From positions 18,799 through 82,798 of the forward strand of contig JAXLXA010000002.1 in NCBI GenBank assembly GCA_046328215.1: a stretch of DNA of 64,000 nucleotides, read 5' to 3'. This document shows positions 4,890 to 45,149 of this stretch, piece after piece. Below the pieces are notes generated by a model that was not told the DNA's origin, did not search any database, and saw only the letters and a list, made by a program, of their open reading frames with translations. The stretch is from Dehalococcoidia bacterium. Lineage in GTDB: Bacteria; Chloroflexota; Dehalococcoidia; Tepidiformales; Tepidiformaceae. Position numbers and translations under genes: made by a program. Each line of letters opens with the position of its first letter. Position 1 is the first letter of the stretch.

Positions 4890-5255
4890 ATCCGCCGAAC
4901 CGACTCAGCCCTCAGTACGCGTCCACGGATCAGGGTGTCGGAGTGGACGGAACCGCGACCCTTGCCGGAGCGGCTCACGGCTTAGTGAGAGAGCCGCGCG
5001 GTAGCCACCCACCATCCGGGCTCACGAACTCGCTCGCTGACTCGTGACCTGGTGGCCTGGTCACGATCCGCTCCCGATGGGTCGCGGTTCAACGACGGGT
5101 GGCGGTTGGATGCGGCCTGCCCTGCTCAGTCCTCAGTCCTTTGCACTTTTCACCTTGTCCCGTAGTGGCTGGCGCGTGGCTGTGTCGCTAAGCCACGATC
5201 CGCTTACTGTCGTGCACGGTTCGACTTGGCGTGGCGCCCTACTCAGTCCTCAGTA
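4890..5255. repeat. Left part of repeat array 1: a diverged unit plus one ~135 bp unit carrying (CTCAGTC)n, and a solo IS630-like terminal repeat at ~4905-4940
   Basis: tcagccctcagtacgcgtccacggatcagggtgtcgga at ~4905-4940 matches the left TIR of the IS at 5256. Unit 5130-5253 matches the units at 6480-6905. Confidence 0.7.
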
Positions 5256-6479: not shown

Positions 6480-6905
6480 TACTCAGTCCTCAGTCCTCAG
6501 TCCTCAGTCCTCAGTCCTTTGCACTTTCACCTTGTCCGGTGATGGCTACCGCGTGGCTGTGTCGCTAAGCCACGATCCGCTTACTGTCGTGCACGGTTCG
6601 ACTTGGCGTGGCGCCCTACTCAGTCCTCAGTCCTCAGTCCTCAGTCCTCAGTCCTCAGTCCTTCGCACTTTCGACCTGGTGATGGCTACCGCGTGGCTGT
6701 GTCGCTAAGCCGTGATCCGCTTACTGTCGTGCGCGGTTCGACTTGGCGTGGCGCCCCACTCAGTCCTCAGTCCTTTGCACTTTTCACCTTGTCCCGTGGT
6801 GGCTGGCGCGTGGCTGTGTCGCTAAGCCACGATCCGCTTACTGTCGTGCGCGGTTCGACTTGGTGTGGCGCCCCACTCAGTCCTCAGTCCTTTGCACTTT
6901 CGACT
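6480..6905. repeat. Repeat array 1, right part: ~3.5 tandem units of ~140 bp with variable (CTCAGTC)n tracts (n=4, 5, 2, 2)
   Basis: Repeated ...tttgcactttcaccttgtcc.ggtgatggct.gcgcgtggctgtgtcgctaagccacgatccgcttactgtcgtgc.cggttcgacttggcgtggcgcc..actcagtcctcag... Internal hairpin cgtggct-N9-agccacg. Confidence 0.85.
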
Positions 6906-16703: not shown

Positions 16704-16804
16704 ATTGCGGATTGTTGACTTCGGATTGTGGATTGGGAGAGCGAGTCGGGGTCGGCGGCCGCCCAGTCTGGAATCCACAATCCGCAATCCGAAATCCCGC
16801 AATT
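16703..16804. terminator. long imperfect inverted repeat (~32 bp arms built from CGGATTG-like heptads, GC-rich 36 nt loop). Probable bidirectional terminator or protein-binding site.
   Basis: gaattgcggattgttgacttcggattgtggatt ... aatccacaatccgcaatccgaaatcccgcaatt. Confidence 0.5.
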
Positions 16805-16891: not shown

Positions 16892-17098
16892 ATGATTCAG
16901 TTTCCTAAGTGCCGGAAATGCGATTTCGGTGACCTTGTGCCATTTAGCGACTTCGGGAGCCAGGGCGCCCCGATCCACTACAAGGCGTGGGTCTGCACGA
17001 ACCCCGATTGCGGTGACAACATCAAGATCCGCAACGGCGAGCTCTACATCGACGAGCCCATCAATGACGGGCAAGTGCATTACAGCCGGAGCCGGTAA
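16892..17098 (+). CDS. small zinc-ribbon protein (CxxC...CxxC)
   Basis: 68 aa with CRKC...CTNPDC. AT-rich promoter-like region upstream. Confidence 0.5.
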   Translation: MIQFPKCRKCDFGDLVPFSDFGSQGAPIHYKAWVCTNPDCGDNIKIRNGELYIDEPINDGQVHYSRSR

Positions 17099-17163: not shown

Positions 17164-17823
17164 ATGCCGCAGGCGAACAAGATTTACGAACCGCTCCCGC
17201 TCCTCGACCTGAACGTTGAGGAAGAAGTCCAGCAGAACATCCTCGTCACGAGCGTTGACCAGGTCCTCAACTGGGCGCGGCGTTCGTCGTTGTGGCCGTG
17301 CATGTTCGGCCTTGCCTGCTGCGCCATGGAGATGATCGCGACCGCCACGCCGCGGTACGACATCGCCCGCTTCGGCGCCGAGATCTTCCGCGCTTCCCCG
17401 CGCCAGGCCGACCTCTTGCTCGTCCCCGGGACGGTGACCTGGAAAATGGCCCCGGCCGTCCGCCGGATCTGGCTGCAGATGCCGGAACCGAAGTGGGCGC
17501 TCGCCATGGGCGGCTGCGCGATCATGGGCGGGCCGTTCGCCTACGCGTACAGCGTCACTCCCGGCGTGAACACTCTCGTGCCGGTCGATGTGTACGTCCC
17601 CGGCTGCCCGCCGCGGCCGGAATCGCTCCTCACCGGGCTGATGTTGCTGCAGGACAAGATCAAGCGCGACACCATCGGCAAGGGCTGGGTACGGCGCGAT
17701 GTTGAGCCGCAGTTCCAGCGCTACCTCCCCGAGGGCGACCCGATCCGCAAGGAACTCGAAACGCTCTGGCCGCCGTACATCGACTACGGCAAGCCGCTCA
17801 CGGGCGACATCTTCGCGAAGTAA
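17164..17823 (+). CDS. NADH-quinone oxidoreductase subunit B-like [4Fe-4S] protein, standalone with ~40 aa C-terminal extension
   Basis: NuoB/hydrogenase small-subunit cysteine motifs CCAMEM...GGC...CPP. No nuoA/C/D neighbours. Confidence 0.8.
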
Positions 17824-17880: not shown

Positions 17881-18088
17881 CATGGCTGCACAATGGAGTG
17901 ACGTCGAAGACCTGGTGAAGCACCTGTTCGAGCAGGGCCTCCAGCCGGACCGCCAGGAGCTCGTGGACCTCGCCTTCGCCGAGAATGCGAACGACGACGT
18001 GATCGACGCGCTCGACTCGCTCAACGGGAAGCCGGTGCCGTCGCTCGACAGCCTGAAGCAGCAGCTCGAGGCGAACGGGCAGATTTAG
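17881..18088 (+). CDS. small acidic hypothetical protein (69 aa). Its 3' end is duplicated at 19866-19899.
   Basis: MAAQWSDVEDLVKHLFEQGL...QQLEANGQI*. The terminal ~40 nt recur at the IS110 tandem junction. Confidence 0.5.
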
Positions 18089-18099
18089 TACTCAGTTGG

Positions 18100-19865
18100 G
18101 GACGTTGGCGGCGGGCCTGCCCTCACCCCCCCGGCCCCCTCTCCCGACTCCTGCGTCGCGGGCGAGGGGGAGTTCAGGTCGCGTGTTTGCCGGACGAACG
18201 ATCGCCGACTTTCACGAGTTTGTACTGGTCCCTCTCCCCCTTCGCGGCGGGCCTGCCCTCACCCCCCGGCTCCTTCCATGAGAAGGCCGGTTGGGGTCAA
18301 GCCACGTAGACGTGTGGCGTTGGTTGGTGCCCTGCCGGTTCGCCTCGCTTCCATCCGCACTCGTTGAGGAGCATTCGTTGGCTTGCTCCGGTGCATGCTG
18401 AGGTCCGTTTTAGGGTCAGGTGCTGCAATCTCTCCTGCGGGATACCTTCGCTCCCAGGGGGCCGCCGCAGTCACCCGGACGCGGCTTTGGGCTTGGTCGT
18501 CTGGGTCCGCGCTTTGGCCTGGTGCTTCTAGGCAGCCATTGGCGCGCTGCTTTCCGAGCGGAGCGGTTCGTACACTTCCCCGCTGACCCGAGGTGGTGCA
18601 GGAGGACGGCGAGTTTTCTGGCGACGGCGATGATAGCCCGCTTCTTCTGGTTCTGCCTCCTCTTGCCGTCAGTCGCTCGCCGAATCGGCAGGTCGCAGTC
18701 AGTCCCGCGCATGACCCGGTGGCGCATTCGACGAGGAGTGGTGCGCAGGTAGCGGTCTCCCGCGTGGGTGATGCCGAGCTTGGGGGTTTTGTTCACCCGA
18801 TGCCTGTTGCCGTGGTGCGAGCCCAAGGTAGGCGCTCGCCTGGCGGCTTTTCTTGAACCGTCCTTTCTCTTCGAGGGTGAGGATGTAGGTCACCGCCGTC
18901 AGTGCTCCCACTCCATGGACCTGTCGCAAGACACCGCTCTCGGGGTACTCCTTTTCGGCCAGCCGGTTCACTTCTCCGTCGTACGCTTTGATGAGCAGGG
19001 TGCTGGCGCACCAGTTCGAGCAGGGGCCCGAGGCTTGCCTGGAGCCTCTCCGGGATGCGCTCCCACATCCTCATTGCGAAAGGCGTCCGCGTCGCACTGG
19101 GGGAGCCGTCCGCCATGTGCCTTCACGGTGCCGCGGATGTGGTTCACCAGGGCTGTCCTCGCCGCCACCACGTGCGCCCGGGCGAGGATCAGGGCCCGCC
19201 CCTCCTGCCTTCTGGCCGCGGTGCGTGATCGGCGCCAGCAACGCTGCATCTACCTGCGCCAGCCGCGCCAGGGTCTCGGCATCTGTCCTGTCCGTTTTGC
19301 GCTGGGAGCGGGTGATCAGTGGATCCGGCGCGGGTTCGCGACGATGACGATGCTCATCTCCTTGAGGAGGACGGCCACCCCAGGGCGAGCGGTCCCTACT
19401 TCCAGGGCGACCACTGTCCGCTCTCTTTCCGAGCAGCTTCCTGAGCGCCGGCGCTGTCGTTGCCACTTTGCCTTCGGCTTCGACTGCTCCATCCCGGTCG
19501 AGCACCACGTAGGTGCTCTCCTTGTCCTTGAGGTCGAGTCCCATCGTCCGCAGCTCCGTTGTATCGTTCTTCATGGCCGGTCTGTCTCCTTTTTGCAGCA
19601 CCTTAGGTGACTGCGTGACGGCCGGCCTTCATCCCATCTCTCCCGACTCCTATCGTCGCGGCGAGGGGGTTCAGGTCGCGTATTTGCCGCGGACGAACGA
19701 TCGCCGGCTTTCACGAGTACTGGTCCACCTCACCCTTCGTTTGACGGCTGCTCTCGCGCGGCGAGGGCACTCCCATACCAGGGCGCGCGCGGCGGCGGAA
19801 CGAGAGACTGCCGAGCTGAACCGAGCGTTGTTACGCCGGCGGGGCGGCCGCCTGCATCTCGGCCT
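18100..19865 (-). mobile_element. IS110-family element, copy 1 of a tandem duplication (transposase pseudogenised)
   Basis: Minus-strand ORF fragments MKNDTTELRTMGLDLKDKESTYVVLDRDGAVEAEGKV (IS110 N-terminus), ...TAVTYILTLEEKG..., GSHHGNRHRVNKTPKLGITHAGDRYLRTT (C-terminus). Flanked by ~100 bp direct repeats. Confidence 0.8.
18416..19601 (-). pseudogene. IS110-family transposase, multiply frameshifted (copy 1)
   Basis: Three or more ORF fragments in different frames cover one ~350-400 aa transposase. Confidence 0.7.
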
Positions 19866-19907
19866 GAAGCAGCAGCTCGAGGCGAACGGCCAGATTTAGT
19901 ACTCAGT

Positions 19908-21662
19908 TGAGGAAGTTGGCGGTGAATCGCGGCGGGCCTGCCCTCACCCCCGGCCCCCTCTCCCGACTCCTATCGTCGCGGGCGAGGGGGAGTTCAGGTC
20001 GCGTGTTTGCGCGGACGAACGATCGCCGACTTGGAGGAGTTTGTACTGGTCCCCCTCCCCTTCGCGGGGGCCTGCCCTCACCCCCCGGCTCCTTCCATGA
20101 GAAGGCCGGTTGGGTCAAGCCACGCGGTGGATGTGTGCGCTGGTTGGTGCCCTGCCGGTTCGCCTCGCTTCCATCCGCACTCGTTGAGGAGCATTCGTTG
20201 GCTTGCTCCGGTGCATGCTGAGGTCCGTTTTAGGTCGGGTGCTGCAATCTCTCCTGGCGGGATACCTTCGCCCCCAGGGGCCGCCGCAGTCACCCGGACG
20301 CGGCTTGGGCTTGGTCGTCTGGGTCCGCGCTTTGGCCTGGTGCTTCTAGGCAGCCATTGGCGCGCTGCTTTCCGAGCGGAGCGGGTTCGTACACTTCCCT
20401 GCTGACCCAGAGGTGGTGCAGGAGGACGGCGAGTTTTCTGGCGACGGCGATGATAGCCCGCTTTTTCCGGTTCTGCCTCCTCTTGCCGTCAGTCGCTCGC
20501 CGAATCGGCGCAGGTCGCAGTCAGTCCCGCGCATGACCCGGTGGGCGCATTCGACGAGGAGGGTGCGCAGGTAGCGGTCTCCCGCGTGGGTGATGCCGGG
20601 GGTTTTGTTCACCTGATGCCTGTTGCCGTGGTGCGAGCCCAAGGTGGCGCCTGCCTGGCGGCTTTTCTTGAACTGTCCTTTCTCTTCGAGGGTGAGGATG
20701 TAGGTCACCGCCGTCAGTGCTCCCACTCCATGGACCTGTCGCAGACACCGCTCTCGGGGTACTCCTTTTCGGCCAGCCGGTTCACTTCTCCGTCGTACGC
20801 TTTGATGAGCAGGGTGTGCTGGCGCACCAGTTCGAGCAGGGCCCGAGGCTTGCCTGGAGCCTCTCCGGGATGCGCTCCCACATCCTCATTGCGAAGGCGT
20901 CCGCGTCGCACTGGGGGAGCCGTCCGCCATGTGCCTTCACGGTGCCGCGGATGTGGTTCACCAGGGCTGTCCTCGCCGCCAACACCACGTGCGCCCGGGC
21001 GAGATCAGCCCGCCCCTCCTGGGCTCTCTGGCCGCGGTGCGTGATCGGCGCCAGCAACGCTGCATCTACCCGCGCCAGCCGCGCCAGGGTCCCCGGCATC
21101 TGTCCTGTCCGTTTTGCGCTGGGAGCGGTGATCAGTGGATCTGGCGCGGGTTCGCGACGATGACGTGATGCTTCATCTCCTTGAGGAGGACGCTGACCCA
21201 GGGCGAGTGTGTCCCTACTTCCAGGGCGACCACTGTCCGCTCCCTCTTTCCGAGCAGCTTCCTGAGCGCCGGCGCTGTCGTTGCCACCTTACCTTCGGCT
21301 TCGACTACTCCATCCCGGTCGAGCACCACGTAGGTGCTCTCCTTGTCTCCGAGGTCGAGTCCCATCGTCCGCAGCTCCGTTGTATCGTTCTTCATGGCCG
21401 GTCTGCTCTCCTTTTTGCAGCACCTTAGGTGACTGCGTGACGGCCGGCCTTCTCATCCCATCTCTCCCGACTCCTATCGTCGCGGGCGAGGGGGAGTTCA
21501 GGTCGCGTGTTTGCCGCGGACGAACGATCGCCGACTTTCACGGGTTTGGGCTCGTCTCCCTCCCCCTTTGTTTGACGGCCGCTCTCGCGCGGCGAGGGCA
21601 CTCCCACACCAGGGCGTCGCGCAGTTGCGGAACCTGGAGACTGCCGAGCTGAATCGAGCGTT
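19908..21662 (-). mobile_element. IS110-family element, copy 2 of the tandem duplication (transposase pseudogenised)
   Basis: ORF fragments 21132..21395, 20782..21099, 20346..20726 (minus strand) together cover an IS110 transposase. About 95% identical to copy 1 with indels. Confidence 0.8.
20346..21395 (-). pseudogene. IS110-family transposase, frameshifted (copy 2)
   Basis: MKNDTTELRTMGLDLGDKESTYVVLDRDGVVEAEGKVATTAPALRKLLGKRERTVVALEVGTHSPW... continues in other frames. Confidence 0.7.
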
Positions 21663-21663
21663 G

Positions 21664-22491
21664 TTACGCCGGCGGCGCGGCTGCCTGCATCTCCGCCATG
21701 CGCTGGGAGAACAGCTTGCCCGTGGTGATGCCGCCCTCGACAGGCAGACAGATCCCGGTGACGAAGCTGGAGGCGTCGCTGGCGAGCCAGAGCGCCGCTT
21801 CGGCGATATCACGGACGCTACCTGAGCGCGGGATGGGCTGCGCTTTGACGAAGCCCATCTGGAGCATGGGGATGAGCGACTCCGCGGCCTCCTGTTCCAT
21901 CCCGCCGGCGCGCCCGAAGATCGCTGTCGGGATAGCTCCTGGAGCGATCGCGTTGATGCGCACGTTCTCTTCGCCAATCTCATTGGCGAGCACCTTCGTC
22001 ACATGGATCACCGCCGCCTTCGCCGCCGAGTAGAGCGTCCCGCCGTAGCCGACGCCCAGTCCGGCGACGCTGGCTGTGTTGATGATGCTGCCGGACTTCT
22101 GCTCCTTCATCACCGCCGCGGCGTGCTTGACGCCGAAAAGGACGCCGCCCAGGAGCAGGTCGACCACTTCGTGATAGAGCTGAGGCGTGAGGTCCGTGAT
22201 CAGGCGCTCGGGATGGCCGCGCCCGGCGTTGTTGAACATGCAGTCCAGCCGGCCGAACTTCTCGACCGCGTGGTGCACGGCGGCGCCGACCTGGGCCTCG
22301 TCGGTGACGTCGGTGTGGACGAAGCTCGTGGTCGGGCCGAGCTCTTCGACCATCTTCTCGCAGCGCGCATCCTGCACGTCCGCGAGGACAACCTTCGCGC
22401 CCTCGCTGGCGAACAGTCGCGCGGATTCCGCGCCAATCCCGCTGGCAGCGCCGGTGATCACCGCCACTTTGCCTTCAAGTCGTCCCGCCAT
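21664..22491 (-). CDS. SDR-family oxidoreductase
   Basis: TGAASGIGAE Rossmann motif. YSAAK catalytic motif. 275 aa. Confidence 0.85.
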   Translation of the reverse strand: MAGRLEGKVAVITGAASGIGAESARLFASEGAKVVLADVQDARCEKMVEELGPTTSFVHTDVTDEAQVGAAVHHAVEKFGRLDCMFNNAGRGHPERLITDLTPQLYHEVVDLLLGGVLFGVKHAAAVMKEQKSGSIINTASVAGLGVGYGGTLYSAAKAAVIHVTKVLANEIGEENVRINAIAPGAIPTAIFGRAGGMEQEAAESLIPMLQMGFVKAQPIPRSGSVRDIAEAALWLASDASSFVTGICLPVEGGITTGKLFSQRMAEMQAAAPPA

Positions 22492-29459: not shown

Positions 29460-29499
29460 TGGGGCGATTGTGGATTGGCGGGGTGGGCTGGCTTCTGGA

Positions 29500-30062
29500 G
29501 TTCGAGTGAGTTCGGCCACCCGCTTACTGCCGTGCGCGGTTCGGACTGAGGACTGAGTCGCCAGAGGTCATCGAATCGTGTGGGTCGGGCGTCGCAGCCG
29601 CTCCCTTGCAGTCGCGGCTACGGCCTGGCGGTGGTGTGGGTTCGGCCACCCGCTTACTGCCGTGCGCGGTTCGGATGGGGCGTGCGAGGGCGCGGTCAAT
29701 GGACCGTGTGGGTTGGGCGTCGCAGCCGCTCCCTTGCGTTCGCGGCTACGGTTTGGTGGTGGTGTGAGTTCGGCCACCCGCTTACTGCCGTGCGCGGTTC
29801 GGATGGTGGGCGCGGTCAACGGACCGTGTGGGTTGGGCATCGCAGCGCCCCTTGCGGTCGCGGCTACGGTTTGGGTCGGTGGTGTGAGTTCGGCCACCGC
29901 TTACTGCCGTGCGCGGTTCGGATGGTGGGCGAGGTCAACGGACCGTGTGGGTTGGGCATCGCAGCGCTCCCTTGCGGTCGCGGCTACGGTTTGGTGGTGG
30001 TGTGAGTTCGGCCACCCGCTTACTGCCGTGCGCGGTTCAGATGGGGGCGTGCGAGGGCGACG
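29500..30062. repeat. Repeat array 2: ~4.5 tandem units of ~128 bp containing the core ccgcttactgccgtgcgcggttcgg. The first unit also carries gactgaggactgag (reverse-complement heptamers).
   Basis: Units gagttcggccacccgcttactgccgtgcgcggttcggatggtgggcg.ggtcaacggaccgtgtgggttgggc.tcgcagc.ctcccttgcggtcgcggctacggtttggtggtggtgt. The last unit supplies the PP2C stop codon. Confidence 0.85.
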
Positions 30063-41432: not shown

Positions 41433-41448
41433 GGCCCTCACCCCCGTC

Positions 41449-41830
41449 CCCTCTCCCGCGCTGCGGGCGAGGGGAGCTAAGCGCGTGGCGAGAACAGTGT
41501 GCCGGACGGGACTAGTCGATGCGGATGGCTGAGCGGTGGAAGCGGCGATGATGTCCGGGTCCGGGATGATGGATACCCGCGCGTTCTCCTTGCCCGCGTA
41601 CTCGAACGCCGAGAGCACGTGGCGGATGCTCTCCATGCACGCCCCGTCCCCTCTCCCGCGCTGCGGGCGAGGGGAGCTAAGCGCCTGGAGAGAACAGTGT
41701 GCCGGACGGGACTAGTCGATGCGGATGGCTGAGCGGTGGAACCGGCCGATGATGTCCGGGTCGGGGATGATGGATACCCGCGCGTTCTCCTTGCCCGCGT
41801 ACTCGAACGCCGAAAGCACGTGGCGGATGC
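41449..41830. repeat. tandem duplication of ~190 bp comprising the ppk2 3' end plus a downstream GC palindrome (cccctctcccgcgctgcgggcgagggg)
   Basis: 41449-41640 is nearly identical to 41640-41830. The second copy is the functional ppk2 C-terminus. Confidence 0.85.
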
Positions 41831-42764
41831 TCTCCAGGCGCGCGGCCCGCTTGTCGTTCGCCTTCACGATGATCCATGGGCTGAAGCTGGTGTGCGTCAG
41901 GCTGAACATCCGCTCCTTGTGGCGCGTGTAGTCGTCCCACAGCTCCTGGCCGCGCTCGTCGATCGGGCTCAGCTTCCACTGCTTGAGCGGGTTGTTGCGG
42001 CGGGAGTCGAAGCGGGCAGCCTGGACCTCTTTCGAGATGGAGAACCAGAACTTCACGATGTCCACGCCGTCTTCCACGAGCATATGCTCGAACTCGGGGG
42101 TCTGGCGCATGAAGCGGTCGTACTGTTCAGGCGTGCAGAAGCCCATGACGGGCTCGACGACGGCGCGGTTGTACCAGGAGCGGTCGAAGAAGACGATTTC
42201 GCCGCGATTGGGGAGCTGGCGCATGTAGCGCTGGAAGTACCACTGGCCGGTCTCGTCGTCCGTTGGTTTCGGGAGCGCGACCACGCGCATGGCGCGCGGG
42301 TTGAGGTGCTCGGTGAAGCGCCGGATCGTGCCGCCCTTGCCGGCGGCGTCGCGCCCTTCGAACAGGATCGCCAACCGGCGGCCGCTTTCCTGCACCCAGC
42401 GCTGCAACTTCACGAGCTCGATTTGCAGGCTCTCCAGCTCGTACTCGTACTGCATCGCCTTCTTCACGCGGCCGACGCTGACATTCTTCGTGCGCAACAG
42501 CTGGATGAACTCGCGCGAGGTGTGCAGGTCGCTCAGCTCTTCCTGCAGGACCACCTGGTCCGGGAGGGAGACCCACTTTGTCGAATGGATGGCGTCGGCC
42601 ATGGCAGCGAGCGTTTCGTCGCTGACGGAGCCGTCTTCGGGGAGCACCGCGCGCAGCACGCTGAGCAACTCCTGCTTCAGGGACGGGGGTGTGCCCGTGC
42701 CATTGAGGCCGGCCCCGTTCAGGCCTGGCTCGTGTTTCGTGTCCTTCGGCGCCAGTTGCGTCAT
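41712..42764 (-). CDS. ppk2: polyphosphate kinase 2
   Basis: ILFEGRDAAGKGGTIRRF (Walker A), FDRSWYNR, lid motifs. Start at MTQLAPKD. Confidence 0.85.
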   Translation of the reverse strand: MTQLAPKDTKHEPGLNGAGLNGTGTPPSLKQELLSVLRAVLPEDGSVSDETLAAMADAIHSTKWVSLPDQVVLQEELSDLHTSREFIQLLRTKNVSVGRVKKAMQYEYELESLQIELVKLQRWVQESGRRLAILFEGRDAAGKGGTIRRFTEHLNPRAMRVVALPKPTDDETGQWYFQRYMRQLPNRGEIVFFDRSWYNRAVVEPVMGFCTPEQYDRFMRQTPEFEHMLVEDGVDIVKFWFSISKEVQAARFDSRRNNPLKQWKLSPIDERGQELWDDYTRHKERMFSLTHTSFSPWIIVKANDKRAARLESIRHVLSAFEYAGKENARVSIIPDPDIIGRFHRSAIRID

Positions 42765-42914
42765 GGTTGCTCTCCAACAAACGAATCGGCCGGCCCATTG
42801 CGGTACCGACACCAATAGATGACGGCAAGAACTGCGCTAGCGGTAGGATCGTTCGGGCTTTCAGCCTGACCCGGTGGTGCCTATGCGCGATCGGCTCGGT
42901 GCCTGGGCGCCCTC

Positions 42915-43917: not shown

Positions 43918-44706
43918 ATGCGATTGCCTTGCGGGTCGCTCCCGCGCAACGATGCGACGGTGACCCACTTCTTGCGCGATTCCCACGGACGCCCGGTGGA
44001 CCTCGAAATCGAAGTGCACACCGCGCGTTCGCCGCAGGAATTGCCCCCGTGCCCGTGGCAATTCCCGGATCCGAGGGGAACCGACGAGCGTGGGTTCATC
44101 GGCTTCGGGGCGGACTTCGCGCCGGCGACGATTGTCGCGGCATACCGCGGCGGCATCTTCCCGTGGCCACACAGCGAGGCCGAGTTCGCCTGGTTTTCGC
44201 CCGATCCCAGAGCGGTGATCCCGCTGCAGGGGCTACGCATCTCGCAACGCCTCGGCCGGACGTTGCGGAGCGGGCGCTTCCGCTACACCGTGGACGCCGC
44301 GTTCGGGCGGGTGATGCGCTCCTGCGCGGCGGGGCGCCCCGAAGGCACCTGGATCACGGACGCGCTGGTCGAGGGGTACTGCCAGCTGCACGCGCTTGGC
44401 TGGGCGCACAGCGTCGAAGTTTGGAGCGCGAACGGGCGGTTGGCCGGCGGGCTGTACGGCGTGGCGGTGGGTAGCATGTTCGGCGCCGAATCGATGTTCC
44501 ACCGCCAAACGGACGCCTCGAAGGCGGCGATGGCGGCACTCGTCCAGCACGCGGCCAGCATCGGCGTGGAGCTCCTGGACGTCCAGGTCCTGACCGAGCA
44601 CACCGAACGCATGGGCGCGGTCGAGATACCGCGTGCCGAGTACCTGAGGAGGCTGGAGGAGGCGGCTGGCAGGCGTGTGGATTGGACGGATGGAGTCAGC
44701 GGGTGA
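43918..44706 (+). CDS. aat: leucyl/phenylalanyl-tRNA--protein transferase
   Basis: YRGGIFPWP...WFSPDPRAV...GGLYGVAVGSMFGAESMFH motifs. The last codons lie in repeat array 3. Confidence 0.85.
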   Translation: MRLPCGSLPRNDATVTHFLRDSHGRPVDLEIEVHTARSPQELPPCPWQFPDPRGTDERGFIGFGADFAPATIVAAYRGGIFPWPHSEAEFAWFSPDPRAVIPLQGLRISQRLGRTLRSGRFRYTVDAAFGRVMRSCAAGRPEGTWITDALVEGYCQLHALGWAHSVEVWSANGRLAGGLYGVAVGSMFGAESMFHRQTDASKAAMAALVQHAASIGVELLDVQVLTEHTERMGAVEIPRAEYLRRLEEAAGRRVDWTDGVSG

Positions 44707-45070
44707 GGGGAGGGAGCGTGGTGGGCTCGCGCGCGGCGACCCGTGCTGGTGTAGGAGCGCAGCGCTTACTGCGTGCGCGCCTCGGATTTGCAGGCGGAAG
44801 GGCGTGTGGATTGGATGGGTGGAGGCAGCGGGTGAGGGGAGGGAGCGTGATGGCTCGCGCGGGGCGACCCGTGCTGGTTTAGGAGCGCAGCGCTTACTGC
44901 GTGCGCGCCTCGGATTTGCAGACGGAAGGGCGGGTGGGGTGGAGGGTGGGAGTCAGCGGGTGAGGGCAGGGAGCGTGGTGGCTCGCGCGCGGCGACCCGT
45001 GCTGGTTTGCGAGCGCAGCGCTTACTGCGTGCGCGCCTCGGATTTGCAGATCGCGAGGATCGAGGCCGGT
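44690..45070. repeat. Repeat array 3: three tandem ~126 bp units with the core cgcttactgcgtgcgcgcctcggatttgcag
   Basis: gcgggtgagggg.gggagcgtg.tgg.ctcgcgcg.ggcgacccgtgctggt.t.ggagcgcagcgcttactgcgtgcgcgcctcggatttgcag..gg repeated three times. Confidence 0.85.
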
Positions 45071-45149
45071 GGCCCTGGCGATTCCAGCTGAGCATCTGGG
45101 TTCCAGTGAGTTCGATTCATCGACCGCGAAGACATAGTCCGTCCGGCCG

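What the first reader, a model, noticed from the sequence alone, without database searches (positions are those of the whole stretch)
18058..21690. Tandem duplication of an IS110-family insertion together with the tails of both flanking genes; both copies pseudogenised
A ~1.81 kb unit is repeated twice head-to-tail. Each copy contains an IS110-type transposase broken into three or more frames, and the copies differ by indels.

The junction at 19835-19900 joins the last 10 codons plus stop of the downstream SDR gene (ttacgccggcgg…ctgcatctc, reverse-complement MAEMQAAAPPA*) to the last codons of the upstream small gene (…cagcagctcgaggcgaacggccagatttag = QQLEANGQI*). This creates a chimeric ORF (19513-19899). 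The duplicated segment therefore included both gene ends, which indicates a segmental tandem duplication rather than two transposition events.

Each IS copy is also flanked by ~100 bp same-orientation repeats containing the motif tctcccgact…cgcgggcgagggggag.
Basis: seen in the sequence. Interest (0 to 1): 0.55.

Follow-up and report, generated by a model that had tools for sequence, protein, structure and literature searches.

The report
Two IS1111 copies in old duplication
Two copies of an ordinary, recently active, RNA-guided IS1111-type insertion sequence sit in a small tandem duplication that is older than they are, and their "broken" transposase genes are most likely uncorrected sequencing errors.

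Summary
The head-to-tail repeat is in the sequence: 18054-19864 and 19865-21697, joined at SDR-tail|small-gene-tail with GCC microhomology. Each copy holds an IS110-family element.

1. A related strain (L013) has the same junction and no IS in either copy. It carries a native 138-bp tandem repeat instead. The flank paralogs differ by about 10%, the IS copies by 1.5% or less. So the gene-tail duplication is older than the IS.

2. The "~100-bp flanking direct repeats" are units of that 138-bp REP-like array. The IS interrupts one unit at CGGCCCC-CT-CTCCCG.

3. The element is IS1111-type: 13-bp subterminal inverted repeats, a 253-nt 3' non-coding region with guide-like matches to both target strands, and at least six other insertion loci.

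4. Twelve independent short-read copies are all 1377 nt with no indels. The window copies carry 13 and 19 indel events, mostly at homopolymers. Almost all lie more than about 500 nt from unique DNA, inside an otherwise clean contig of a Dehalococcoidia MAG. "Pseudogenised" is therefore probably an unpolished-repeat artefact.

Verdict: an ordinary new member of a known kind, of low interest.

The parts
17882..18088 (+). Small gene (68 aa, weak DUF2795 match). Its last 35 nt (18054-18088) are the source of the duplicated tail.
   Evidence: ORF and Pfam results. The same 68-aa gene is called in many independent contigs.
18054..19864 (.). Tandem unit 1 (1811 nt). Order: small-gene tail, leader, one intact 138-bp unit, a unit interrupted by IS copy 1, spacer, pseudo-tail of the SDR gene.
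18108..18245 (+). Intact 138-bp REP-like repeat unit (GGCGGGCCTGCCCTCACCCC...CCCCTCTCCCGAC-loop-GTCGCGGGCGAGGGGG...). It contains an unoccupied IS target, CCCCTCTCCCG, at 18136-18146.
   Evidence: Matches the unit consensus from L013 (TRF period 138, 3.0 copies, 94%). Also. L014 confirms the sequence.
18246..18274 (+). Left part of the interrupted 138-bp unit. It ends in the CT core (18273-18274).
   Evidence: The junction is identical in the independent contig L014.
18275..19637 (-). IS copy 1 (1363 nt; intact copies are 1377 nt). On the minus strand the transposase remnant is 18528-19574 and the 3' non-coding region is 18275-18527. sTIR at 18278-18290; the opposite sTIR, damaged by a 2-nt gap, lies within 19622-19632.
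18430..18464 (-). Putative target-guide segments of a seekRNA/bridge-type RNA. CTCTCC(T)G at 18430-18437 is the reverse complement of CGGGAGAG. AGGGGGCCG at 18456-18464 is the reverse complement of CGGCCCCCT. A donor-junction match, CTTCCAT, lies at 18348-18354.
   Evidence: Exact matches to both strands of the target around the core. The block is conserved in relatives at 88% and 63% identity, with one guide/flank co-variation.
19638..19739 (+). Right part of the interrupted 138-bp unit. It starts with the CT core (19638-19639).
19831..19899 (.). Duplication junction: SDR pseudo-tail (19831-19864) joined to small-gene pseudo-tail (19865-19899), with GCC microhomology at 19862-19864.
   Evidence: (D14, D15). 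The same junction is present in the IS-free contig L013 at 2145-2215.
19865..21697 (.). Tandem unit 2 (1833 nt). Order: small-gene pseudo-tail, leader, one intact 138-bp unit (about 19929-20065), a unit interrupted by IS copy 2, spacer, real SDR tail.
20094..21461 (-). IS copy 2 (1368 nt). Transposase remnant 20346-21395. 3' non-coding region 20094-20345. sTIRs at 20097-20109 and 21444-21456. CT cores at 20092-20093 and 21462-21463.
   Evidence: Positions 21152-21461 are identical to L018 apart from one extra C at 21406, and L003 (which reaches to 21164) also lacks that C.
21664..22491 (-). Intact short-chain dehydrogenase gene (275 aa, MFN8615504.1). Its last 34 nt are the source of the other duplicated tail.

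Best explanation
**Proposed history**
1. *Shown.* The DNA between the small gene and the SDR gene is an array of a 138-bp REP-like repeat.
2. *Shown for the junction; its age is inferred.* Long ago a 0.3-0.5-kb piece of this region, together with the last 35 nt of the small gene and the last 34 nt of the SDR gene, was duplicated head-to-tail. The mechanism was illegitimate recombination at a 3-nt GCC microhomology.
3. *Order inferred.* Later a multi-copy, recently active IS1111-type insertion sequence came to occupy the same position in both paralogous copies. The element is 1377 bp, or 1379 bp if one AG/CT core is counted. It encodes a 352-aa DEDD transposase and has 13-bp subterminal inverted repeats.

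**How the IS chooses its site**
It inserts in one orientation at CGGCCCC-CT-CTCCCG, inside the stem of the REP-like hairpin. The site is most likely chosen by a seekRNA/bridge-type RNA from the 253-nt region downstream of the transposase gene. That region carries CGGCCCCCU and CGGGAGAG, which match the two strands on either side of the CT core, and AUGGAAG, which matches the joined IS ends. The anatomy is shown. The RNA itself and its function are inferred from the family.

**How the second copy arose**
It was either a second targeted insertion or gene conversion between the tandem paralogs. I lean slightly to conversion or a local copy, for two reasons:
- the two copies share a C>T seen in none of 12 other copies;
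- their immediate flanks are alike.

**The frameshifts**
The many frameshifts are most likely consensus errors left in the interior of a repeat that short reads could not polish, within a long-read or hybrid MAG assembly. They are probably not biological decay.
For: **The junction is older than the IS**
- L013, a related strain (97.7% identity in the left genes), has SDR'-tail|small-gene-tail with the same derived leader variant (GTTGAGGAAG). It has 1 + 3 uninterrupted 138-bp units and no IS.
- Spacer plus tail paralogs differ by 8.8-10.1% substitutions in the window and 10.7% in L013.
- Each IS copy has only 10-14 isolated private substitutions in about 1370 nt.

**Targeted, multi-copy IS**
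- Twelve independent copies at six or more different loci are all flanked by ...GGGAG-AG|IS|AG-G(G/A)G... within REP-like hairpins. All are 1377 nt, and 11 of the 12 lie within 0-3 differences of the consensus.
- Anatomy and guide matches.
- The guide block is conserved, with one co-varying guide/flank position (C/C against T/T), in a 63%-identical relative.
- The family features match Siddiquee et al. 2024 (PMC11187229).
- The same MAG encodes intact copies, MFN8615973.1 and MFN8616498.1.

**Artefact reading of the frameshifts**
- There are 0 indel columns among the 12 short-read copies, against 13 and 19 indel events in the window copies.
- Only 1 of 32 events lies within 500 nt of unique DNA (binomial P = 0.008).
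- Nine of 15 single-base deletions fall in runs of 3 or more, although only 16% of reference bases do.
- At both outer-margin positions that could be checked, 18311 and the extra C at 21406, the independent contigs L014, L003 and L018 carry the intact consensus.
- Unique parts of the window match Illumina contigs at 99.5-100% with no gaps, and all other genes are intact.
- Both frameshifts shared by the two copies are homopolymer contractions (TT>T, GGG>GG).
- The pseudo-ORFs are not on record in any assembly.
- The window lies on a 374,652-nt MAG contig, so long reads were probably involved.
Against: - No independent contig spans the interior (18590-21130). Neither the two-IS structure nor any interior indel could be checked directly.
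- I do not know the sequencing platform. The "unpolished repeat" model rests on the pattern of differences alone.
- The spatial test is only moderately significant (P = 0.008-0.04, depending on the margin chosen).
- Some differences are 3-5-nt indels or garbled clusters (19350-19391, 20597, 20980). These are not classic homopolymer errors.
- L013 comes from a short-read graph with 138-bp repeats. In principle such a graph could bypass an IS.
- The left flanks of the two units are only 3.6% diverged, so the age contrast rests mainly on the right flank.
- The predicted fold of the 3' non-coding region is no more stable than shuffled sequence (z = -0.24). No Rfam family matched.
Confidence: 0.6

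Rival explanations
1. One IS inserted between the two genes. A 1.8-kb segment containing the IS and both gene tails then duplicated in tandem, and both transposase genes have since decayed into real pseudogenes.
For: - The two units are collinear over their whole length.
- Both IS copies sit at the identical position in the second 138-bp unit, with the same unusual flank GGCTC-CT.
- They share a private C>T and two 1-nt deletions. Taken at face value, this means their common ancestor was already defective and could not have transposed on its own.
Against: - The IS-free contig L013 carries the same junction. This model then needs two precise losses. For the IS1111-type element ISEc11, the regenerated empty target was not detected under conditions in which the IS circle formed (PMC11187229).
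- The right-flank paralogs are about 10% diverged, while the IS copies differ by 1.5% or less in substitutions.
- The indel-to-substitution ratio, about 1:1 or higher, looks far too high for natural decay to me (from memory, not tested). The 12 natural copies have no indels at all.
- The indels avoid the outer margins.
Confidence: 0.1
2. The order of events is as in the best explanation: an old small duplication, with the IS arriving later. But the frameshifts are real, so both copies are true, unusually indel-rich pseudogenes. This could result from slippage or error-prone repair between tandem paralogs, with an already defective copy spread by gene conversion or mobilised in trans by the intact copies elsewhere in the genome.
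For: - Two frameshifts are shared by both copies.
- Some changes are multi-base or clustered and do not look like simple homopolymer errors.
- Another copy in the same MAG (P0002, MFN8619019.1) also has garbled segments.
- The sequencing platform is unknown.
Against: The spatial, homopolymer and ratio arguments in the best explanation apply here too. At both testable margin positions, independent contigs disagree with the window. P0002 is equally well explained by poor polishing of a multi-copy repeat.
Confidence: 0.15
3. The two-IS tandem structure is itself a mis-assembly. The real genome would then have one IS between the genes, or the contig mixes strains with and without the IS or the junction.
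For: - Every independent contig is compatible with a simpler locus. L014 joins the small-gene side to the IS, and L003 and L006 join the IS to the SDR side. None crosses the junction in an IS-bearing strain.
- Short-read contigs through this IS are demonstrably chimeric elsewhere: L018 against L020, and L019 against L024.
- The samples contain several strains.
Against: - The junction sequence is real biology, because L013 has it independently.
- The interior carries two different IS sequences and junction-specific variants. A graph traversal could not invent these, so at least one long molecule must have read IS-flank-junction-flank-IS.
- Contigs L001 and L010, from one sample, end exactly where the paralogous tails would create branches. 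This is weak evidence.
Confidence: 0.1

Closest known systems
IS1111-group insertion sequences with a seekRNA, for example ISPa11, which targets REP sequences in Pseudomonas aeruginosa, and ISEc11 (Siddiquee et al. 2024, PMC11187229)
   Same: - DEDD transposase (PF01548 + PF02371).
- 13-bp subterminal inverted repeats, with 7 nt beyond the repeat on the left (counting the AG) and 3 nt on the right.
- The long non-coding region lies downstream of tnp.
[quoted passage not shown]
- Insertion is orientation-specific, into a REP-like palindrome, with no real target duplication.
   Different: - The host is an uncultured Dehalococcoidia MAG, and the target is part of a 138-bp tandem repeat.
- No RNA, circle or transposition data exist for this element.
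- The transposase was not compared with ISfinder entries, which are not available here, so its name and novelty as an IS are unassigned.
ISPpu9 of Pseudomonas putida KT2440 (IS110 family, inserted into REP sequences; PMC12288879, abstract seen)
   Same: A multi-copy IS of the same superfamily, sitting in repetitive extragenic palindromes, with an RNA gene downstream of the transposase gene.
   Different: I read only the abstract. Modular circles were not tested here. In the present element the RNA-coding region is always inside the 1377-bp unit (12 of 12 copies).
IS621/IS110-type bridge-RNA recombinases (recalled from memory: Durrant et al. 2024 and Hiraizumi et al. 2024, not read here)
   Same: The logic is the same: two guide pairs, one for the target and one for the donor, each straddling a 2-nt core. 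Here the core is CT.
   Different: As I recall it, in IS621 the RNA is encoded upstream of the recombinase gene and there are no subterminal repeats. Here it lies downstream and sTIRs are present. No Rfam model matched.
Residual indel errors in repeats of long-read or hybrid assemblies polished with short reads (general knowledge, not tested against this sample's reads)
   Same: - Indel-dominated, homopolymer-biased differences.
- The differences are limited to the part of a repeat that lies further than about one insert length from unique sequence.
- The unique flanks are perfect.
   Different: The platform and pipeline of this MAG are unknown to me. A few of the differences are multi-base.

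Membership tests
IS110 family in the broad ISfinder sense (DEDD transposases) | An N-terminal DEDD/RuvC-like domain (PF01548) plus a C-terminal Transposase_20 domain (PF02371) in one protein of about 350 aa | tested here: met
   Fragments of both copies hit both Pfam families. The reconstructed protein is 97% identical to P0001 and to the 352-aa P0122, both of which carry both domains. The catalytic residues were not inspected one by one.
IS110 family in the broad ISfinder sense (DEDD transposases) | Site- and orientation-specific insertion without a classical target-site duplication | tested here: met
   Twelve copies at six or more loci all lie at ...GGGAG-AG|IS|AG-G..., with only the 2-nt core present on both sides. 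The uninterrupted target is seen in L013 and in window units.
IS1111 group | Subterminal inverted repeats (sTIR), with about 7 nt beyond the repeat on the left and 3 nt on the right | tested here: met
   ATGAGAAGGCCGG and CCGGCCTTCTCAT (13 bp, perfect). AGATGGG lies outside the left repeat and GGA outside the right. The criterion comes from PMC11187229.
IS1111 group | The longer non-coding region lies downstream of tnp | tested here: met
   65 nt upstream against 253 nt downstream in the intact copy.
IS1111 group | An RNA derived from the non-coding region (seekRNA) carries short sequences matching both strands of the target | tested here: met
   - CGGCCCCCT (positions 64-72) and CGGGAGAG (91-98) match opposite strands on either side of the core. 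ATGGAAG (174-180) matches the circle junction.
- The block is conserved in relatives, with one co-varying position.
- This is sequence evidence only. The single-sequence fold is not distinctive (z = -0.24).
IS1111 group | The seekRNA is expressed, binds the transposase and is required for circle formation and insertion | not testable with these tools
   Needs RNA-seq or RIP and a transposition assay.
   SDR tail joined to small-gene tail at 19862-19865, with GCC microhomology.
   L013 has the junction without any IS. The right-flank paralogs are about 10% diverged, against 1.5% or less for the IS copies.
Transposase pseudogene | Frameshifts or stops relative to intact family members | tested here: met
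   13 and 19 indel events against the 1377-nt consensus.
Transposase pseudogene | The lesions are real, that is, reproduced in independent sequence data | tested here: inconclusive
   - No independent contig covers the interior.
- At both margin positions that could be checked, independent contigs disagree with the window.
- The spatial, homopolymer and ratio patterns point to error.
- The pseudo-ORFs are absent from the collection.
REP-type dispersed palindromic elements (as the IS target) | A short imperfect palindrome, intergenic, in many dispersed copies | tested here: met
   The hairpin CCCCCTCTCCCG-loop-CGGGCGAGGGGG occurs with different loops at six or more loci downstream of different genes. 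The window holds six copies, four of them unoccupied. Genome-wide copy number was not measured.

The most novel reading that the evidence does not exclude
Tail-capturing tandem duplications may be a recurrent product of this genome's REP-like hairpins. Two of the two REP loci in the window, 18.05-21.7 kb and 41.44-41.84 kb, carry such a duplication. Each new copy creates a fresh cognate target, which the RNA-guided IS1111 element then colonises. On this reading, the hairpin-driven duplication and the IS would together build expanding repeat and IS arrays at synteny breakpoints. A still more exotic reading is that the dense indels are real and mark a localised indel-prone process acting on tandem IS copies. 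I cannot exclude it, but I rate it at 0.1 or less.
Probability: 0.15. Interest if true: 0.4.

Novelty: new member of a known kind. Interest (0 to 1): 0.15.

Why it matters
The main value is as a caution. A striking "duplicated and doubly pseudogenised IS" turns out to combine three ordinary things:
- an old microhomology-mediated duplication of an intergenic repeat;
- a well-understood class of site-specific, RNA-guided IS (IS1111 type) that targets a REP-like hairpin;
- probable uncorrected consensus errors inside a repeat.

For annotation, the two transposases should not be counted as decayed without read-level support.

There are two modest positives. The locus gives a clean natural target and guide set for a previously uncharacterised IS1111-type element from uncultured Dehalococcoidia, with 12 near-identical copies, a defined core and defined guide segments. 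It also gives an example of such an element occupying paralogous targets.

Tried and rejected
- **TRF on the region.** It found nothing because the period exceeds 500. The repeat finder and MAFFT were used instead.
- **Rfam scan of 17-23 kb at E<=1.** Only two chance-level hits (mir-150, AS-traG), so no curated bridge or seek RNA family was matched.
- **Exact look-ups of two pseudo-ORFs and of P0002 and P0124.** None is on record, so the MAG's own contigs could not be fetched.
- **Genome-contig scan with the intact transposase.** It returned one 2984-nt contig (L018). Comparison with L020 suggests it is probably a chimeric join through the IS.
- **Metagenome-contig scan with a conserved 30-mer.** It returned one contig (L019), also apparently chimeric.
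- **Single-sequence fold of the 3' non-coding region.** It is no more stable than shuffles, so I make no structural claim beyond the guide matches.
- **Orthology of the flank paralogs between the window and L013.** It is not clean: window copy 2 is closer to L013 copy A than to copy B. The units have recombined, and I did not build a finer history.
- **IS-mediated origin of the junction.** Rejected, because the junction (CTCGGCC|TGAAGC) has no similarity to the IS ends or target and occurs without the IS.
- **The chimeric ORF 19513-19899 as a gene.** Rejected. It runs antisense to the transposase start and through repeat DNA, and nothing supports it beyond being open.
- **Synteny in relatives.** In more distant relatives the SDR gene is followed by ThuA, so they give no empty-site allele.

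Full report
**1. The observation**

The repeat is real in the sequence. The repeat finder returns 20 collinear direct-repeat blocks spaced 1811-1833 nt apart across 18051-21697. A global alignment of the two units gives 96% mean column identity with many short gaps. TRF is silent only because its maximum period is 500.

The last 34 nt of the SDR gene (real copy 21664-21697, pseudo-copy 19831-19864) abut the last 35 nt of the small gene (real copy 18054-18088, pseudo-copy 19865-19899). Three bases, GCC, are common to both parents at the crossover. The units are therefore 18054-19864 and 19865-21697.

In both units the minus-strand ORF fragments hit PF01548 (DEDD_Tnp_IS110) and PF02371 (Transposase_20) and are split over several frames. 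ORF 19513-19899 exists only as a mechanical ORF that runs antisense to the transposase start.

**2. What the flanking repeats are**

Exact-protein look-ups of the neighbouring genes brought in 16 short contigs from other assemblies. Most of them break at the edges of this region.

One contig, L013 (WBZP01037758.1), is decisive. It comes from a related strain, 97.7% identical in the left-hand genes. It runs from the small gene to the SDR gene without any IS. It still contains the same SDR-tail|small-gene-tail junction, including the derived leader variant GTTGAGGAAG after the pseudo-tail. Where the IS would be it has a 138-bp tandem repeat: one unit in the first copy and 3.0 units at 94% identity in the second (TRF score 745).

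In the window each IS splits one such unit. The layout is ...CACCCCCCGGCTC-CT | IS | CT-CTCCCGACTCC..., and one intact unit lies to the left. They are not something the IS made.

**3. What the element is**

A reconstructed transposase found intact relatives at up to 97% identity (P0001). Thirteen loci with the intact element were retrieved (L017-L029), and twelve of them contain the complete IS. All twelve are exactly 1377 nt, with 22 variable columns and no indel columns. Eleven lie within 0-3 differences of the consensus. They sit next to at least six different sets of genes, so this is a multi-copy, recently active IS.

Its anatomy, in transposase-sense orientation, is as follows:
- left end ATGGG, then the inverted repeat ATGAGAAGGCCGG;
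- 65 nt of 5' non-coding sequence;
- a 352-aa ORF;
- a 253-nt 3' non-coding region;
- CCGGCCTTCTCAT, then GGA at the right end;
- the dinucleotide AG (CT on the window's + strand) on both sides.

Counting one AG with the element gives 7 nt outside the left repeat and 3 nt outside the right. Together with subterminal repeats and a downstream non-coding region, this is what Siddiquee et al. give as the signature of the IS1111 group, as distinct from IS110 proper (PMC11187229).

Every insertion lies in the stem of a REP-like hairpin, CCCCCTCTCCCG-loop-CGGGCGAGGGGG followed by CCGGGGGGTGAGGGC, and always at GGGAG-AG^GGGG. The window has four unoccupied exact sites at 18136, 19955, 41448 and 41648.

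The 3' non-coding region contains three guide-like segments:
- CGGCCCCCT at positions 64-72;
- CGGGAGAG at positions 91-98, which with the first matches opposite strands of the target on either side of the core;
- ATGGAAG at positions 174-180, which matches the joined IS ends.

The block is conserved in relatives at 88% and 63% protein identity. In the 63% relative the guide reads GTGGGAGAG and its flank reads GTGGGAG-AG, where the present element has GCGGGAGAG and CGGGAG-AG. That is one co-varying position.

I infer an RNA-guided (seekRNA/bridge-type) choice of target. I did not show the RNA. The single-sequence fold is unremarkable (z = -0.24) and no Rfam model matched.

**4. Order of events**

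If the IS had been inside the unit when the junction formed, the IS copies should be as diverged as the flank paralogs, and no junction-bearing allele should lack the IS. Neither holds.
- L013 has the junction and no IS.
- The right-flank paralogs differ by 10.1% substitutions in the window (8.8% for spacer plus tail alone) and by 10.7% in L013.
- Each IS copy has only about 10-14 isolated private substitutions in about 1370 nt, and part of those are probably errors.
- The reverse route, two precise losses in the L013 lineage, is unattractive. For the IS1111-type element ISEc11, the regenerated empty target was not detected under conditions in which the IS circle formed (PMC11187229).

The small duplication (0.3-0.5 kb without the IS) is therefore older, and the IS came later.

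Two routes could have put it in both copies: two targeted insertions, or one insertion followed by gene conversion between the tandem paralogs. Two observations favour sister copies and fit conversion or a local hop:
- the two copies share a C>T (18436/20255) found in none of the 12 other copies;
- their immediate flanks are alike and resemble the last unit of L013's copy B (about 30 nt to the left and about 85 nt to the right, with GCCGCGG and TTTCACG), whereas the distal flanks differ.

I cannot separate these two routes.

**5. Are the pseudogenes real?**

Against the 1377-nt consensus, copy 1 has 13 indel events and copy 2 has 19. Three changes are common to both copies: the C>T mentioned above, a -T at 18653/20473 and a -G at 19320/21136. 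Several observations argue that most of these are consensus errors.
- **Ratio.** The 12 natural copies have 22 variable sites and no indels. Here indels are as frequent as substitutions or more so.
- **Spatial pattern.** Copy 1 has no indel in its first 314 nt (18275-18588). Copy 2 has only one in its last 325 nt (21137-21461). Only 1 of 32 events lies within 500 nt of unique DNA (binomial P = 0.008; P = 0.014-0.04 for wider margins).
- **Testable positions.** That one event (the extra C at 21406) and the checkable margin substitution (18311) are both contradicted by the independent contigs L003, L018 and L014, which carry the intact consensus.
- **Sequence context.** Nine of 15 single-base deletions are in runs of 3 or more, against 16% of reference bases. 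Both shared deletions are homopolymer contractions, as a systematic error would be.
- **The rest of the window is clean.** Unique parts match short-read contigs at 99.5-100% without gaps, and the other genes are intact.
- **Likely long-read origin.** The window's proteins are MFN8615496.1, MFN8615499.1 and MFN8615504.1, on a 374,652-nt contig of a Dehalococcoidia MAG. That MAG also encodes intact copies of this transposase (MFN8615973.1, MFN8616498.1) and one garbled copy (MFN8619019.1). That these belong to the same genome is inferred from the neighbouring accession numbers. A contig of this length suggests long reads were involved.

From general knowledge, short-read polishing skips multi-mapping reads. 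It therefore leaves exactly this picture: clean margins about one insert length wide and a dirty repeat interior.

Against this reading:
- I do not know the platform.
- No independent contig covers the interior.
- Some lesions are multi-base or clustered (19350-19391, 20597, 20980).
- The spatial test is only moderately strong.

I put the artefact reading at about 0.75-0.8.

**6. Is the two-copy structure real?**

No independent contig crosses the junction in an IS-bearing strain. Short-read contigs through this IS are chimeric elsewhere: L018 against L020, and L019 against L024 and L026, each share one flank but not the other. Still, the junction exists independently in L013. The interior also contains two different IS sequences plus junction-specific variants. 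That requires at least one long molecule reading IS-flank-junction-flank-IS. I accept the structure with about 0.85-0.9 confidence.

**7. Comparison with known systems, and verdict**

The element works like, and meets the tested defining features of, an IS1111-group insertion sequence. Its habit of targeting REP-like palindromes is known from ISPa11 (PMC11187229) and, within the same superfamily, from ISPpu9 (PMC12288879, abstract only). The duplication is an ordinary microhomology junction.

Novelty: a new member of a known kind. Interest: low (0.15).

The only mildly unusual point is that a second REP locus in the window (41442-41843) also carries a tail-capturing tandem duplication. This hints at a recurrent hairpin-associated duplication process that creates new IS targets. 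I did not test it.

Noticed in passing
window 41442-41843: A second tail-capturing tandem duplication (period 200/201 nt, 96-97% identity). Each copy holds a REP-like hairpin (CCCCTCTCCCGCGCTGCGGGCGAGGGG, an unoccupied target of the same IS) plus about 130 nt of the 3' end of the minus-strand gene 41712-42836. Both REP loci of this type in the window carry such a duplication.
   Followed up: partly
window 5119-5254 and 6496-6888; 29496-30052; 44595-45107: Several other intergenic tandem arrays have units of 117-140 nt. One contains runs of the heptamer CAGTCCT. Their sequences are unrelated to the 138-bp unit, so this genome seems rich in repeats of this size class.
   Followed up: no
window 18268-18274 and 20087-20093; L019, L028 against L018, L020, L021, L023: The target flank next to the IS 3' end reads AG-GAGCC at some insertion sites (both window copies, L014, L019, L028). 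At others, and in uninterrupted units, it reads AG-GGGG(C/T)C. The first form is one base shorter and carries one substitution. This is unexplained: it could be a target variant, a footprint or hitch-hiking flank.
   Followed up: partly
L018/L025 against L020; L019 against L024/L026: Short-read contigs share one flank of the IS but not the other. They are therefore chimeric joins through the 1.4-kb repeat. L018 is binned in a 'Phycisphaerales' MAG although it carries the Dehalococcoidia SDR gene. Contigs that traverse this IS should not be trusted for linkage.
   Followed up: partly
P0002 (MFN8619019.1, 25,672-nt contig, apparently of the same MAG): Another copy of the transposase has two locally garbled stretches (around aa 245-262 and the C-terminus) that look like compensated frameshifts. 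This fits imperfect polishing of multi-copy repeats in this assembly. Its DNA could not be fetched.
   Followed up: partly
L033-L038 (relatives with an SDR protein at 90% identity or more): In these strains the SDR gene is followed by a convergent ThuA gene rather than by the small-gene/NuoB-family block. The repeat- and IS-filled spacer in the window therefore lies at a synteny breakpoint.
   Followed up: no
window 16704-16797 (and L013 586-617): Upstream of the 68-aa ORF 16892-17098 there are short inverted repeats built from GGATTG/AATCCGC heptamer-like motifs. TRF finds AATCCGC x4.4 in L013. Their function is unknown.
   Followed up: no
window 17164-17823 and 17882-18088: A stand-alone NuoB-family gene (PF01058) is not embedded in a nuo operon. 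It is followed by a conserved 68-aa gene with a sub-threshold DUF2795 match. The pair is conserved in many metagenome contigs.
   Followed up: no
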